The notes below the pieces were generated by a model. It was given only the letters and a program-made list of their open reading frames with translations, made no database searches and was not told the DNA's origin. From NCBI RefSeq assembly GCF_003019035.1, contig NZ_CP027447.1: a stretch of 64,000 bases of DNA. One strand, given 5' to 3'. Made by a program: the position numbers and the translations under genes. Below, in pieces: positions 21,463 to 25,476 of this stretch (its first letter is position 1; every line of letters starts with the position of its first letter). The DNA is from Escherichia coli. Its GTDB lineage: Bacteria; Pseudomonadota; Gammaproteobacteria; Enterobacterales; Enterobacteriaceae.

Positions 21463-21855
21463 ATGAAAAAATTAGAAGATGTTGGTGTACTGGTAGCGCG
21501 TATTTTAATGCCGATTCTGTTTATTACCGCAGGCTGGGGAAAAATTACTGGCTACGCGGGTACCCAACAATATATGGAAGCAATGGGCGTCCCCGGCTTT
21601 ATGCTGCCGCTGGTGATTCTGCTTGAGTTTGGTGGTGGTCTGGCAATCCTGTTCGGTTTCCTGACACGTACCACAGCCCTGTTTACTGCGGGCTTTACGC
21701 TGCTGACGGCATTTTTATTTCACAGCAACTTTGCTGAAGGCGTCAACTCGCTGATGTTCATGAAAAACCTGACTATTTCTGGCGGATTCCTGCTGCTGGC
21801 AATTACCGGTCCAGGCGCATTCAGCATCGACCGCCTGCTGAATAAAAAGTGGTAA
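21463..21855 (+). CDS. yqjF: DoxX-family inner membrane protein YqjF
   Basis: ORF 21373-21855 trimmed to MKKLEDVGVLVARILMP... (130 aa). Confidence 0.8.
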   Translation: MKKLEDVGVLVARILMPILFITAGWGKITGYAGTQQYMEAMGVPGFMLPLVILLEFGGGLAILFGFLTRTTALFTAGFTLLTAFLFHSNFAEGVNSLMFMKNLTISGGFLLLAITGPGAFSIDRLLNKKW

Positions 21856-21894
21856 GCACGCGCTATACTTAACAATAAAAAACGAGGAGGAACA

Positions 21895-22060
21895 CTCCTC
21901 GTTTCAGATTGTTGACAAAGTGCGCGTTGTTCATGCCGGATGCGGCGTGAACGCCTTATCCGGCCTACAAAAACATGCAAATTCAATACATTGCAGAAAC
22001 CTCGTAGGCCTGATAAGCATAGCGCATCAGGCAGTTTTGCGTTTGCCATCAGTCTCAAAC
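21895..22060. repeat. REP/BIME module flanked by short hairpins
   Basis: gccggatgcggcgtgaacgccttatccggcctac ... gtaggcctgataagcatagcgcatcaggca; flanking hairpins cgaggaggaacactcctcg and cgaggagaaacgctcctcg. Confidence 0.7.
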
Positions 22061-22102
22061 GAGGAGAAACGCTCCTCGTTTTTGCTATTGGAGGAGAGAA
22101 AA

Positions 22103-23089
22103 ATGGGTCAACTGATTGACGGCGTCTGGCATGACACCTGGTACGATACCAAATCCACCGGCGGTAAATTTCAACGTTCAGCTTCCGCATTTCGTAACTG
22201 GCTCACTGCCGATGGCGCGCCAGGCCCCACTGGCAAAGGCGGTTTTATCGCAGAGAAAGATCGTTATCATCTCTATGTTTCACTCGCCTGCCCGTGGGCG
22301 CACCGCACGCTGATCATGCGTAAACTCAAAGGACTGGAACCGTTTATTTCCGTTTCCGTAGTGAACCCGCTGATGCTGGAAAACGGCTGGACCTTTGATG
22401 ACAGTTTTCCGGGAGCAACCGGAGACACGCTCTATCAACATGAATTTCTGTATCAGCTTTATCTCCACGCCGATCCACACTACAGCGGACGAGTTACTGT
22501 TCCCGTACTGTGGGACAAAAAGAACCACACCATCGTCAGCAACGAATCAGCAGAAATCATCCGCATGTTCAATACCGCGTTTGATGCGCTGGGTGCGAAA
22601 GCGGGAGATTACTACCCACCAGCTCTGCAACCGAAAATTGACGAACTTAACGGCTGGATTTACGACACCGTTAACAATGGCGTGTATAAAGCCGGTTTTG
22701 CCACCAGCCAGCAAGCCTACGACGAGGCGGTGGCGAAAGTGTTTGAATCGCTGGCGCGACTGGAACAGATTTTAGGTCAGCACCGTTACCTGACCGGCAA
22801 CCAGCTAACCGAAGCCGATATTCGCCTGTGGACCACGCTGGTGCGTTTTGATCCAGTGTATGTGACCCACTTCAAGTGTGATAAGCACCGCATCAGCGAT
22901 TACCTGAATCTGTATGGCTTCCTGCGCGATATCTACCAGATGCCGGGAATTGCCGAAACAGTCAATTTCGATCACATCCGTAATCATTACTTCCGCAGCC
23001 ATAAGACCATCAACCCTACGGGGATTATTTCAATTGGTCCGTGGCAGGATCTCGATGAACCGCATGGACGAGATGTTCGCTTCGGTTAA
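22103..23089 (+). CDS. yqjG: glutathionyl-hydroquinone reductase YqjG (Xi-class GST)
   Basis: ORF 21920-23089 trimmed to MGQLIDGVWHDTWYD... (328 aa); the long upstream extension overlaps the REP module so was rejected; CPWAHR motif. Confidence 0.85.
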   Translation: MGQLIDGVWHDTWYDTKSTGGKFQRSASAFRNWLTADGAPGPTGKGGFIAEKDRYHLYVSLACPWAHRTLIMRKLKGLEPFISVSVVNPLMLENGWTFDDSFPGATGDTLYQHEFLYQLYLHADPHYSGRVTVPVLWDKKNHTIVSNESAEIIRMFNTAFDALGAKAGDYYPPALQPKIDELNGWIYDTVNNGVYKAGFATSQQAYDEAVAKVFESLARLEQILGQHRYLTGNQLTEADIRLWTTLVRFDPVYVTHFKCDKHRISDYLNLYGFLRDIYQMPGIAETVNFDHIRNHYFRSHKTINPTGIISIGPWQDLDEPHGRDVRFG

Positions 23090-23124
23090 AAAAAGGCACC
23101 TTACGAGGTGCCTCTGATAATTAG

Positions 23125-23255
23125 CTAAGTGCGTGTTGTTCATGTCGGATGCGGCGTAAACGCCTTATCAAACCTACAAAACATTTATATTCAATATGTT
23201 GCAATGACCGCGCAGGCCAGATAAGCGTAGCGCATCTGGCAATTTTGCGCTTGCC
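23125..23255. repeat. REP/BIME module (second copy of the module upstream of yqjG)
   Basis: gttgttcatgtcggatgcggcgtaaacgccttatcaaacctacaaaacatttatattcaatatgttgcaatg ... ggccagataagcgtagcgcatctggca, near-identical in organisation to 21895-22060. Confidence 0.65.
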
Positions 23256-23371
23256 CCTATCCTTCACAGCGCCTTATTAATTCATAGAGATAATATTTAC
23301 TGCCATTTCATTCACGTCTATTCTTAATTTGCTGCTTTAAAAACAAGTGATTGAGCAAAATTGAGGCAAAA

Positions 23372-23737
23372 ATGGACTGGTATCTGAAAGTACTAAAAAA
23401 TTATGTCGGTTTCCGGGGTCGTGCGCGGCGCAAAGAGTACTGGATGTTTATTCTGGTCAACATCATCTTTACGTTCGTGCTGGGGCTACTGGATAAAATG
23501 TTAGGCTGGCAACGTGCCGGTGGCGAAGGCATCCTGACGACAATCTACGGTATTCTGGTGTTTTTACCATGGTGGGCAGTTCAGTTCCGCCGCCTGCACG
23601 ACACCGACCGCTCGGCGTGGTGGGCACTGCTGTTCTTAATCCCGTTTATCGGCTGGCTTATTATCATCGTCTTTAACTGTCAGGCGGGTACGCCAGGCGA
23701 AAACCGCTTTGGACCAGATCCGAAACTGGAACAGTAA
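23372..23737 (+). CDS. yhaH: DUF805-family inner membrane protein (YhaH/YhaI family)
   Basis: ORF 23351-23737 trimmed to MDWYLKVLKNYVGF... (121 aa); DUF805-like hydrophobic architecture; assignment to yhaH rather than its paralog yhaI is tentative. Confidence 0.7.
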   Translation: MDWYLKVLKNYVGFRGRARRKEYWMFILVNIIFTFVLGLLDKMLGWQRAGGEGILTTIYGILVFLPWWAVQFRRLHDTDRSAWWALLFLIPFIGWLIIIVFNCQAGTPGENRFGPDPKLEQ

Positions 23738-23773
23738 TAATAATTAAGCACCTTGTAAAAGGTGCTTAATCGA

Positions 23774-24670
23774 TTATTTTCCGCTAAAAAGTTTGGGAAT
23801 TTCCCGCAGACACCAGGATTTCGCTTCCCCCATACTGTCACGACGCCAGGCCATAATAATATCGATCTCGCTGGTCGATTCCGGGCTGACGACACGCAAC
23901 CGCCCTTCCGCAATATCTTTTTCGACCATCGGATACGGCATCGTCGCCACGCCAAGCCCCGCCAGTAATGCCTGACGTTTATCTTCAATCGTGCTCACCG
24001 TTAAGCGCGGCTGTTTGTCCAGCAGCTGTACGGTCAACACCGGGCGCTCACGAGCGGTATCCGCCACCGCAATTCCACGATATTTCACGCGCGTCACTTC
24101 AGATAACGGTTCCGGCTCCTGATGAATCGGGTGATCAGGCGCGGCAACATAGACGTTCATTAAGGTATAGAGTTTGCGCGAGTTGATCTCCGACGAGGAG
24201 CGAAAATGCATATCCGGCGCGATAACAATATCCGCCCGCCCCTGCTCCAGCCGTTCCCACGCCCCTGCCAGCACTTCGGTGATGATTGCCAGTTGGGTAT
24301 TGGCTTTTACCGCCAGTTTGTCGATTAACGGGAAAAAGGCAGGTGTCGGTACCAGCGCTTCGGTCACAATGGTGAGATGCGTTTCCCAACCGCGCGCGAG
24401 AGCTTCCGCATCGGTAGTCAGTTTATCTGCGGCTTCCAGCAAAACGCGCCCTCGCTCCAGCAACATCCTCCCGACATTGGTGAATTTGGTGCGATGGCCC
24501 GAGCGGTCAAACAGCACCACATCCAGCTCTTCTTCCAATTTTTGCATGGTGTAGCTAAGTGCGGAAGGCACGCGTCCCAGCTCATCCGCCGCCGCCGCAA
24601 AACTGCCCCGGCGATCGATCGCATCCATAACCCGTAGTGCTTCCAGCGTTAATGCCCTTTCTTTGGCCAT
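23774..24670 (-). CDS. yhaJ: LysR-family transcriptional regulator YhaJ
   Basis: 298 aa; N-terminal helix-turn-helix (LTLEALRVMDAIDRRGSFAAAADELGRVPSALSYTMQKLEEEL); divergent from yhaK. Confidence 0.85.
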   Translation of the reverse strand: MAKERALTLEALRVMDAIDRRGSFAAAADELGRVPSALSYTMQKLEEELDVVLFDRSGHRTKFTNVGRMLLERGRVLLEAADKLTTDAEALARGWETHLTIVTEALVPTPAFFPLIDKLAVKANTQLAIITEVLAGAWERLEQGRADIVIAPDMHFRSSSEINSRKLYTLMNVYVAAPDHPIHQEPEPLSEVTRVKYRGIAVADTARERPVLTVQLLDKQPRLTVSTIEDKRQALLAGLGVATMPYPMVEKDIAEGRLRVVSPESTSEIDIIMAWRRDSMGEAKSWCLREIPKLFSGK

Positions 24671-24774
24671 TTCGTTCTCATTCAGGAAATTTGAACATAC
24701 CGGGCAGAATATCTGGCTAACAATGTAGCGTCCAGCCCCTTACCATAAAAGGAAGTAAAGAGAGGTCAAGAATT

Positions 24775-25476
24775 ATGATTACTACCCGAACTGCCAGGCA
24801 GTGTGGACAAGCAGACTACGGATGGTTGCAGGCCCGGTATACTTTTTCCTTTGGACACTACTTCGACCCGAAATTGTTAGGCTATGCCTCCCTGCGCGTG
24901 CTTAACCAGGAAGTGCTGGCCCCAGGTGCCGCCTTTCAGCCGCGAACCTATCCCAAAGTCGATATTTTAAATGTGATTCTGGATGGAGAAGCTGAGTATC
25001 GCGACAGCGAAGGCAATCATGTTCAGGCCAGCGCCGGTGAGGTGTTGCTGCTCTCTACCCAGCCGGGTGTCAGCTATAGCGAACACAATCTCAGCAAAGA
25101 CAAATCGTTAACGCGAATGCAACTTTGGCTGGATGCCTGCCCACAACGAGAGAATCCGCTGATTCAAAAACTGGCGCTTAATATGAGCAAGCAGCAATTA
25201 ATCGCCTCGCCAGAAGGTGGGATGGGAAGCCTGCAATTGCGCCAGCAAGTGTGGCTGCACCATATCGTGCTCGACAAAGGCGAAAGTGCGAATTTCCAGT
25301 TGCATGGGCCACGCGCGTATTTGCAATCGATTCACGGGAAATTTCATGCGCTTACGCATCATGAAGAGAAAGCGGCGCTGACCTGCGGTGATGGGGCGTT
25401 TATTCGTGACGAGGCTAACATTACGCTGGTTGCCGATTCCCCACTGCGCGCTTTGCTGATAGATTTGCCTGTCTAG
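24775..25476 (+). CDS. yhaK: pirin-like bicupin protein YhaK
   Basis: 233 aa; recognised sequence; synteny. Confidence 0.85.
   Translation: MITTRTARQCGQADYGWLQARYTFSFGHYFDPKLLGYASLRVLNQEVLAPGAAFQPRTYPKVDILNVILDGEAEYRDSEGNHVQASAGEVLLLSTQPGVSYSEHNLSKDKSLTRMQLWLDACPQRENPLIQKLALNMSKQQLIASPEGGMGSLQLRQQVWLHHIVLDKGESANFQLHGPRAYLQSIHGKFHALTHHEEKAALTCGDGAFIRDEANITLVADSPLRALLIDLPV

What the first reader, a model, noticed from the sequence alone, without database searches (positions are those of the whole stretch)
23090..23780. Single DUF805 gene where K-12 has the yhaH-yhaI paralog pair
Between yqjG and yhaJ there is a REP module and one DUF805 ORF (121 aa), whose stop lies 37 bp from the yhaJ stop. 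As I recall, K-12 has two tandem DUF805 genes here (yhaH and yhaI). This may be loss or non-duplication of one paralog, possibly linked to REP-mediated rearrangement.
Basis: partly seen in the sequence, partly recalled or inferred. Interest (0 to 1): 0.2.

Follow-up and report, generated by a model that had tools for sequence, protein, structure and literature searches.

The report
Ancestral yhaH-only locus lacking yhaI
This E. coli strain has one small membrane-protein gene (yhaH) where K-12 has two (yhaH and yhaI); this is a common, ordinary strain difference in which the window keeps the older one-gene layout and K-12 carries an extra, foreign-looking gene.

Summary
Between yqjG (22103-23089) and yhaJ (23774-24670, minus strand) the window has a REP/BIME element and one DUF805 gene (23372-23737, 121 aa). 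K-12 has yhaH and yhaI there.

The gene present is yhaH: 99% amino-acid identity to K-12 YhaH, 56% to YhaI. The difference is a clean replacement. The window has 41 bp (23733-23773) holding a perfect bidirectional terminator-like hairpin. K-12 has 653 bp of low-GC DNA (37%): an AT-rich spacer, yhaI and its own terminator.

- **Frequency:** the one-gene junction is in 991 of 5,426 complete E. coli genomes; the yhaI segment is in 4,409.
- **Outgroups:** the same hairpin haplotype occurs in E. albertii and four other non-coli Escherichia lineages. Most Enterobacteriaceae species have a single gene here.
- **Direction:** the window most likely keeps the ancestral state, and yhaI is an old, separate paralogue added in most E. 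coli.
- **REP link:** rejected. The BIME is shared by both haplotypes and lies about 470 bp from the junction.

This is an ordinary, already annotated gene-content polymorphism of low interest. Side observations: two deeply diverged yhaI alleles, and BIMEs flanked by duplicated terminator hairpins.

The parts
22103..23089 (+). yqjG (glutathionyl-hydroquinone reductase), left flank of the locus
   Evidence: ORF; Pfam GST_N_2/GST_C_2; 99% aa identity to K-12 YqjG
23095..23112 (+). yqjG terminator-like hairpin GGCACCT-tacg-AGGTGCC, shared with K-12
   Evidence: Read from the sequence; identical in K-12
23113..23259 (.).
   Evidence: Aligns over its whole length with BIME units elsewhere and with K-12; sub-threshold Rfam naRNA4 hit at 23138-23174
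23372..23737 (+). yhaH, the single DUF805 gene (121 aa); ends LEQ*, whereas the usual one-gene allele ends LEQE* (122 aa)
   Evidence: Pfam PF05656 E=4.5e-35; 99% aa identity to K-12 YhaH, 56% to YhaI; stop-codon comparison
23733..23773 (.). Haplotype-specific 41-bp segment, replaced in K-12 by 653 bp (L001 4666-5318: AT-rich spacer, yhaI, terminator)
   Evidence: Pairwise and multiple alignments; junctions CTGGAAC| and |TTATTTTCCG are identical in all four yhaI-bearing strains examined
23744..23769 (.). Perfect palindrome TTAAGCACCTT-gtaa-AAGGTGCTTAA: shared bidirectional terminator-like hairpin for the convergent yhaH and yhaJ
   Evidence: Terminator scan hits on both strands; RNA fold -18.9 and -19.8 kcal/mol, z -6.5 and -7.6; unique in the window; conserved in Escherichia outgroups
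23774..24670 (-). yhaJ (LysR-type regulator), right flank, convergent with yhaH
   Evidence: ORF; Pfam HTH_1 + LysR_substrate; 99% aa identity to K-12

Best explanation
The window carries the older, genus-wide Escherichia version of this locus: yqjG, a BIME, yhaH, one shared hairpin terminator, then the convergent yhaJ. Nothing has been deleted. The K-12-type locus is the derived or alternative haplotype.

In K-12, 41 bp (the last one to two codons of yhaH plus the hairpin) are replaced by a 653-bp low-GC cassette. The cassette holds a new yhaH tail and terminator, a 241-bp AT-rich spacer, yhaI and a GGGGCGATATTTCGCCCC terminator. YhaI belongs to a separate, old DUF805 paralogue clade that occupies this same slot patchily in Citrobacter, Superficieibacter and Intestinirhabdus.

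Most likely (inferred) the cassette entered an E. coli ancestor by recombination with DNA from a relative that already had the two-gene layout. The crossovers would lie in the conserved yhaH 3' end and at the yhaJ stop. It then spread to about 81% of sequenced E. coli. Lineages such as the window's strain (identical to SCU-301), UPEC 536 and ST131 kept the original layout.

Functionally, the window strain makes one small three-helix inner-membrane DUF805 protein instead of two, and yhaH and yhaJ end at a common bidirectional terminator. The biochemical role of DUF805 proteins remains unknown.
For: **Shown**
- The gene is yhaH over its full length, with no chimerism.
- The indel is 41 bp against 653 bp with sharp junctions, identical in K-12, AH50, GPEC673 and LD67-1.
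- The one-gene junction is in 991 of 5,426 genomes and the yhaI segment in 4,409.
- The same hairpin haplotype is in E. albertii (L002) and Escherichia lineages L003, L005 and L006, which are 8-10% diverged from the window in yhaJ against 1-2% within E. coli. L004 (3.9% diverged) has it as well.
- Of 80 yhaJ-anchored species loci, 69 have a single DUF805 gene, 3 have two and 8 have none.
- The cassette is 37% GC (spacer 28%, yhaI 45%, GC3 46%), against 51-55% (GC3 56-62%) for the flanking genes.
- YhaI forms a clade apart from all YhaH orthologues. Its nearest non-coli relatives are only 62-68% identical.
- Those relatives lie in the same slot, with a homologous distal terminator.
- Real deletion derivatives look different. 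C. amalonaticus L010 has a YhaH body with a YhaI tail and the YhaI terminator. An IS1 deletion removes both genes in TBU0218.
- The hairpin is a strong terminator-like structure on both strands.

**From the literature**
- yhaI is 36-fold activated by Ler in EHEC (PMC3891560). Ler counteracts H-NS (my knowledge), so this would fit silencing of an AT-rich acquired gene.
Against: - No donor with a near-identical yhaI was found; the best non-coli match is 68% aa. A recent import therefore cannot be demonstrated.
- The two-gene layout exists in several genera. It could equally be an old polymorphism, or an ancestral state lost several times.
- No mobility genes or flanking direct repeats mark the cassette.
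- Presence and absence were not mapped onto an E. coli phylogeny here.
- The window's flanks are slightly closer to a yhaI-bearing strain (AH50: 99.1% in yhaJ, 99.6% in yhaK) than to ST131 (98.8% in yhaJ). Recombination has therefore uncoupled the indel from its flanks, which blurs the polarity within E. coli.
- I did not check whether SCU-301 has yhaI elsewhere in its genome. The counts 991 + 4,409 = 5,400 of 5,426 only suggest that the two states are mutually exclusive.
Confidence: 0.7

Rival explanations
1. Loss: the window's lineage descends from a two-gene E. coli ancestor and deleted yhaI.
For: 81% of complete E. coli genomes have yhaI. DUF805 genes at this locus are demonstrably deletable: IS1 deletion of both genes in L092, yhaH deletion in L004 and a paralogue-recombination deletion in C. 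amalonaticus L010.
Against: The 41-bp window-specific segment has no similarity to any part of the 653-bp cassette. A deletion would leave one of the cassette's two hairpins or a chimeric gene, not a new perfect palindrome. The same palindrome is present in Escherichia lineages 8-10% diverged from E. coli.
Confidence: 0.08
2. Ancient trans-species polymorphism: the one-gene and two-gene haplotypes both predate E. coli and have been kept or exchanged among enterobacteria, so neither 'gain' nor 'loss' in E. coli is the right description.
For: YhaI-type genes occupy exactly this slot in C. rodentium, Citrobacter sp. ANG330, C. sedlakii and Superficieibacter electus, with a homologous terminator and a similar AT-rich spacer. 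Within one species complex both states occur (C. amalonaticus L010 against ANG330). E. coli yhaI has two deeply diverged alleles at about equal frequency. The flanks are recombined right up to the junctions.
Against: All five non-coli Escherichia representatives lack yhaI. The low GC of the cassette is as expected for acquired DNA. No test for balancing selection was run.
Confidence: 0.2
3. REP/BIME-mediated rearrangement removed or prevented the second paralogue.
For: A BIME lies between yqjG and yhaH. BIMEs are clearly active at this locus in other lineages: one is inserted into the yhaH-yhaJ hairpin in L002, L003 and L006, and one is inserted between yqjF and yqjG in the window.
Against: The BIME is present at the same position in K-12. 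Its end lies about 470 bp from the left junction, and neither junction contains REP sequence.
Confidence: 0.02
4. Assembly artefact: two similar paralogues were collapsed into one.
For: None, beyond the general risk with tandem paralogues.
Against: yhaH and yhaI are only 56% identical in protein, and their DNA is too divergent to collapse. The identical junction occurs in 991 complete genomes. The gene is not chimeric.
Confidence: 0.01

Closest known systems
E. coli K-12 YhaH (b3103), DUF805/PF05656 inner-membrane protein
   Same: 120 of 121 residues identical; same position between yqjG and yhaJ; same upstream BIME and 5' region.
   Different: The last residue differs (Q against P) because the K-12 tail comes from the yhaI cassette junction. 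The window allele has also lost the terminal Glu of the usual one-gene allele (LEQ* against LEQE*) through a G-to-T stop. The downstream terminator is different.
E. coli K-12 YhaI (b3104), DUF805 paralogue
   Same: Same Pfam family; shares the N-terminal GRARRKEYWMF and RRLHDTDRS motifs.
   Different: Only 56% identical; separate clade; absent from the window; lies in low-GC DNA.
One-gene yhaH-hairpin-yhaJ haplotype of other Escherichia and of ST131/UPEC 536-type E. coli
   Same: Same architecture and the same palindromic hairpin.
   Different: Two adjacent base differences at the yhaH stop (CAGTAA against CAAGAA), shared with only one other complete genome, SCU-301. E. albertii, L003 and L006 additionally have a BIME inserted into the hairpin.
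Two-gene yhaH-yhaI-yhaJ modules of Citrobacter rodentium, C. sedlakii, Citrobacter sp. ANG330 and Superficieibacter
   Same: They show what the alternative haplotype looks like and that yhaI always sits next to the yhaJ 3' end, with a GGGGC...GCCCC terminator.
   Different: The window lacks this module. E. coli YhaI is only 60-68% identical to these proteins.

Membership tests
DUF805 (Pfam PF05656) | Match to the family HMM above Pfam's gathering score over the full domain | tested here: met
   E=4.5e-35, 120.9 bits against a cut-off of 25.7; profile positions 1-111 of 111
YhaH orthologue (not YhaI) | Near-identity to K-12 YhaH along the whole length, and clustering with YhaH orthologues rather than the YhaI clade | tested here: met
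   99% to YhaH against 56% to YhaI; falls within the Escherichia YhaH clade in the NJ tree
YhaH orthologue (not YhaI) | Conserved position downstream of yqjG and convergent with yhaJ | tested here: met
YhaH/YhaI chimera produced by paralogue recombination (deletion derivative) | YhaH-type 5' part joined to a YhaI-type 3' tail and the YhaI terminator | tested here: not met
   The window's tail and hairpin share nothing with the yhaI tail or terminator. C. amalonaticus L010 does meet this feature.
REP/BIME-mediated rearrangement | REP sequence at or across a rearrangement junction | tested here: not met
   The BIME is shared by both haplotypes, its end lies about 470 bp from the left junction, and the junctions are REP-free
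Rho-independent (intrinsic) bidirectional terminator | Stable stem-loop followed by a U-rich tract on each strand | tested here: met
   Consensus scan hits on both strands (12-13 pairs, only 4 of them G-C); -18.9 and -19.8 kcal/mol, z -6.5 and -7.6
Rho-independent (intrinsic) bidirectional terminator | Termination of transcripts demonstrated in vivo or in vitro | not testable with these tools
   Needs Term-seq, Northern blots or in vitro transcription
Horizontally acquired cassette (applies to K-12's yhaI segment, not to the window) | Base composition atypical for the host | tested here: met
   37% GC against 51-55% in the flanks; GC3 46% against 56-62%
Horizontally acquired cassette (applies to K-12's yhaI segment, not to the window) | An identifiable donor, or mobility signatures (integrase, IS, target duplication) | tested here: not met
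   The nearest non-coli YhaI is 62-68% identical. There are no flanking repeats or mobility genes, and the IS1 copies seen in some strains are secondary insertions.

The most novel reading that the evidence does not exclude
The slot next to yhaJ could be a long-lived, trans-species presence/absence polymorphism kept by balancing selection on phage susceptibility. It has three E. coli haplotypes: no yhaI (18%), the K-12 yhaI allele (about 38%) and a second allele (about 42%). The second allele differs from the K-12 one by about 30% in nucleotides across a roughly 190-bp patch that encodes the membrane helices. YhaH is reported to be needed for infection by phages PhiWec188 and PhiWec190 (bioRxiv 10.1101/2024.11.29.626071). 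YhaI might modify, partner with or act as a decoy for YhaH; natural proteins with two to four fused DUF805 domains hint at oligomers.
Probability: 0.08. Interest if true: 0.45.

Novelty: already known. Interest (0 to 1): 0.1.

Why it matters
It matters little by itself. It is one of many accessory-gene differences between E. coli lineages, and it is already visible in the RefSeq annotation of about a thousand genomes.

It is useful as a correction of direction. K-12 is the unusual, augmented state relative to the genus, and the window is not degraded. For anyone studying DUF805 proteins, the yhaJ/yqjF regulon or YhaH-dependent phages, strains of this type are natural yhaI-null backgrounds with an intact yhaH.

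Tried and rejected
- **REP-mediated deletion:** rejected. The BIME is shared with K-12 and lies away from the junctions.
- **Paralogue-recombination chimera:** rejected for the window, although a true example turned up in C. amalonaticus.
- **Microhomology between the window's AACAGTAATAATAAT and K-12's AACAATAATAAAT near yhaJ:** I considered this as a deletion junction. I dropped it because the outgroups show that the hairpin haplotype is independent of the cassette.
- **Function from solved structures:** no significant PDB sequence match. The best hit is cytochrome b at E=0.13, perhaps the source of the old 'putative cytochrome' label. A confident AlphaFold model (pLDDT 92) found no Foldseek match in the PDB.
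- **NCBIfam:** only sub-threshold hits.
- **Rfam:** only REP-derived hits, and nothing at the hairpin.
- **Literature:** searches for DUF805 and for yhaH/yhaI found no paper describing this polymorphism. The YhaJ papers checked do not mention yhaH or yhaI.
- **Phylogroup assignment of the 991 genomes:** not possible, because searches return counts and at most 60 rows.

Full report
**What is in the window**

Reading 21800-25200 and listing ORFs gives the following layout.

| Feature | Coordinates | Strand |
|---|---|---|
| yqjG | 22103-23089 | + |
| yqjG terminator hairpin | 23095-23112 | + |
| degenerate REP pair (BIME-like unit) | about 23113-23259 | . |
| 121-aa ORF | 23372-23737 | + |
| yhaJ | 23774-24670 | - |
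| yhaK | from 24775 | + |

- Pfam places the 121-aa protein in DUF805 (PF05656, E=4.5e-35). It identifies YqjG as a GST-like protein and YhaJ as a LysR regulator.
- The two convergent stop codons are separated by 36 nt.
- The K-12 MG1655 annotation shows yqjG, yhaH (121 aa), yhaI (118 aa) and yhaJ.
- No other DUF805 gene is present in the 64-kb window.
- The window is identical over 24 kb to E. coli SCU-301. The next-best genomes, led by UPEC 536, are 98.7% identical.

**Which paralogue it is, and where the difference lies**

The window protein is 99% identical to K-12 YhaH (120 of 121 residues) and 56% identical to YhaI. It is yhaH along its whole length, not a hybrid.

DNA alignment with K-12 and with four further strains shows that the two forms are collinear up to ...CCGAAACTGGAAC (window 23732). 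They are collinear again from TTATTTTCCG (window 23774, the yhaJ stop). In between:

- The window has 41 bp (23733-23773).
- K-12 has 653 bp (L001 4666-5318). These hold a different last codon and stop for yhaH, a GCCGGATG...CATCCGGC hairpin, a 241-bp AT-rich spacer, yhaI, and a GGGGCGATATTTCGCCCC hairpin.

The window's 41 bp contain a perfect palindrome, TTAAGCACCTT-gtaa-AAGGTGCTTAA (23744-23769).

- It scores as terminator-like on both strands.
- It folds at -18.9 and -19.8 kcal/mol, with z-scores of -6.5 and -7.6.
- It is unique in the window.
- It shows no similarity to any part of the K-12 cassette.

**How common each form is**

| Form | Complete E. coli genomes (of 5,426) |
|---|---|
| One-gene junction (66-nt probe) | 991 (18%), once each |
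| 648-bp yhaI probe (L001 4671-5318) | 4,409 (81%) |

The few remaining genomes include other rearrangements:

- IS1 insertions in the AT-rich spacer (row H10, row H81).
- An IS1-associated deletion of both DUF805 genes in strain TBU0218_10-1CC.

One-gene genomes include uk_P46212 and an APEC O2:K1:H5 strain. UPEC 536 is probably one too, judging from its match length; I did not fetch its locus. From my own knowledge these are phylogroup B2 lineages (uk_P46212 is ST131). Phylogroup was not tested here.

**Direction of the change**

A yhaJ-anchored scan of one genome per species returned 80 loci. Locating DUF805, YqjG and YhaK homologues in them gave this breakdown:

| DUF805 genes between yqjG and yhaJ | Loci |
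|---|---|
| one | 69 |
| two | 3 (C. sedlakii, Huaxiibacter, one Lelliottia) |
| none | 8 |

All five non-coli Escherichia representatives lack yhaI. Their spacer sequences show the same hairpin as the window:

- Intact in L005.
- Split by a BIME insertion, with the hairpin duplicated on both sides, in E. albertii L002, L003 and L006.
- Retained in L004, even though most of yhaH is deleted there.

These lineages are genuine outgroups. Their yhaJ differs from the window's by 8-10% (3.9% for L004), against 1-2% among E. coli. The one-gene hairpin haplotype is therefore at least as old as the genus. It cannot be a recent deletion product of the E. coli two-gene form.

**Nature of the yhaI cassette**

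- **Composition:** it is 37% GC (spacer 28%, yhaI 45%, GC3 46%). yqjG, yhaH, yhaJ and yhaK are 51-55% GC (GC3 56-62%).
- **Phylogeny:** in a neighbour-joining tree of 89 DUF805 proteins, E. coli YhaI groups away from every YhaH orthologue. It groups with proteins of Intestinirhabdus, Superficieibacter and some Citrobacter.
- **Nearest relatives:** a search of 5.8 billion proteins found no non-coli relative closer than about 68%.
- **Position:** the YhaI-type genes lie in the same slot in C. rodentium, Citrobacter sp. ANG330 and Superficieibacter electus. The slot is yhaH, then an AT-rich spacer, then yhaI, next to the yhaJ 3' end. Alignment shows a homologous GGGGC...GCCCC terminator and a conserved AATATTAYTTTCC run into yhaJ.
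- **Single origin in E. coli:** the four E. coli yhaI-bearing strains examined share identical junctions, which points to one origin within the species.

I infer that the cassette came into an E. coli ancestor by recombination with a relative that already had the two-gene layout. Later intraspecies recombination would have trimmed the imported flanks down to the present junctions. Retention of an older polymorphism is not excluded.

Published data fit a silenced, acquired gene. yhaI (Z4458) was the most strongly Ler-activated gene outside the LEE in EHEC, at 36-fold (PMC3891560). Ler counteracts H-NS, from my own knowledge.

**What real losses look like here**

- C. amalonaticus ku-bf3 (L010) has a single gene with a YhaH body, a YhaI-type tail (…PKQNEMR) and the YhaI-type terminator. 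This is a deletion by recombination between the paralogues at the conserved DPK codons.
- Strain TBU0218_10-1CC has IS1 in place of both genes.

The window shows neither signature.

**The REP idea**

The BIME between yqjG and yhaH is present at the same place in K-12. Its end lies about 470 bp upstream of the left junction. Neither junction contains REP sequence. The proposed link is not supported.

**What the protein is**

- DUF805 is a very large family: 27,891 clusters at 50% identity match at E ≤ 0.001.
- No PDB chain matches by sequence. The best is cytochrome b at E=0.13, not significant.
- An AlphaFold model built on 58 homologues is confident (pLDDT 91.8, pTM 0.82). It shows a short N-terminal helix followed by three long hydrophobic helices, the last kinked near Pro91.
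- Foldseek found no PDB match for the model.
- Nearly invariant positions include G16-R17-A18-R20-E22-W24 and R73-R74-L75-H76-D77.

From the literature:

- Salmonella yhaH is a direct target of the sRNA SdsR, and YhaH rises in stationary phase (PMC5137417).
- E. coli yhaH mutants resist phages PhiWec188 and PhiWec190, and complementation restores sensitivity (bioRxiv 10.1101/2024.11.29.626071).

The biochemical activity is unknown.

**Verdict**

The finding is real but ordinary. It is a frequent and already annotated gene-content polymorphism. The window holds the ancestral one-gene layout, and K-12 holds an added, foreign-looking paralogue.

The only window-specific detail is a G-to-T change that makes yhaH end one codon early (LEQ* instead of LEQE*). 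Only SCU-301 among the 991 one-gene genomes shares it.

Noticed in passing
window 21856-22102 (yqjF-yqjG spacer); also L002, L003 and L006 between yhaH and yhaJ; window 23095-23290: A roughly 150-165-bp BIME unit (REP pair around an ATTCAATAT..TTG core, which resembles an IHF site to my eye) is flanked on both sides by copies of the local terminator hairpin. K-12 has the yqjF-yqjG hairpin AAACGAGGAG..CTCCTCGTTT once; the window has it on each side of a BIME that K-12 lacks. The yhaH-yhaJ hairpin is duplicated the same way around a BIME in E. albertii and two other Escherichia lineages. The shared yqjG-yhaH BIME seems to have a decayed second hairpin copy. The pattern looks like insertion into a terminator with a 20-30-bp target duplication. 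A review reports similar behaviour for Yersinia YPAL/RU-2 elements: target duplications of 3-26 bp at or next to dyad symmetries (PMC2229807).
   Followed up: partly
L001 5030-5215 (K-12 yhaI) versus L082, L083, L084: E. coli yhaI exists as two deeply diverged alleles at about equal frequency: 2,083 genomes at 99% or more to K-12, 2,078 at 90-95% and 210 at 80-90%. The divergence is confined to a patch of about 190 bp that is roughly 70% identical (19 of 118 residues differ), while the flanks are 96-100% identical. This is a mosaic or recombination patch from an unknown yhaI-like source. yhaH is nearly invariant by comparison.
   Followed up: partly
L010 4964-5326 (Citrobacter amalonaticus ku-bf3): The single DUF805 gene is a chimera: a YhaH-type body with a YhaI-type C-terminal tail (PKQNEMR) and the YhaI-type terminator. 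This indicates deletion of the intervening DNA by recombination between the tandem paralogues. Citrobacter sp. ANG330 (L088), whose YhaI is nearly identical to one annotated as C. amalonaticus (P0103), keeps both genes.
   Followed up: partly
L004 4894-5061 (Escherichia sp. MOD1-EC7003): yhaH is deleted from inside the yqjG-yhaH BIME to about 35 nt before the yhaH stop. The ancestral hairpin is left intact next to yhaJ. Here a REP element does sit at a deletion junction.
   Followed up: partly
L091 4920-5617; L092 1788-2485; row H10 and row H81: The AT-rich yhaH-yhaI spacer carries IS1 in at least three strains from different sources. In strain TBU0218_10-1CC an IS1 replaces both yhaH and yhaI, so both genes are dispensable.
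   Followed up: partly
window 23733-23737: The window's yhaH ends CAG TAA (LEQ*, 121 aa). The usual one-gene allele ends CAA GAA TAA (LEQE*, 122 aa) and Escherichia outgroups have CAG GAA TAA. Only one of the 991 one-gene genomes (SCU-301) shares the window's version. The match in length with K-12 YhaH (121 aa) is a coincidence.
   Followed up: yes
L090 1619-3360 (Superficieibacter electus): Three DUF805 genes in tandem (145, 122 and 119 aa) lie next to yhaJ, with an Ldh_2-family gene inserted after yqjG. This further shows that the slot is a hotspot for DUF805 copy-number change.
   Followed up: no
one search hit list (e.g. P0129, P0141, P0143): Many library proteins of 230-330 aa contain two to four DUF805 domains fused in tandem. 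This hints that DUF805 units act as oligomers and that adjacent paralogues such as YhaH and YhaI might pair.
   Followed up: no
window 21971-22011 (+): An Rfam ES036 (CssrF) sRNA model matches just above its gathering score (38.4 against 37.6 bits), inside the BIME that K-12 lacks at this site. It is probably a REP-derived match rather than a specific sRNA gene.
   Followed up: no
K-12 yhaI (L001 4912-5268), EHEC Z4458: The old label 'putative cytochrome' for YhaI, still present in some records, has no support. For the YhaH paralogue the best PDB sequence match is cytochrome b at E=0.13; YhaI itself was not searched.
   Followed up: partly
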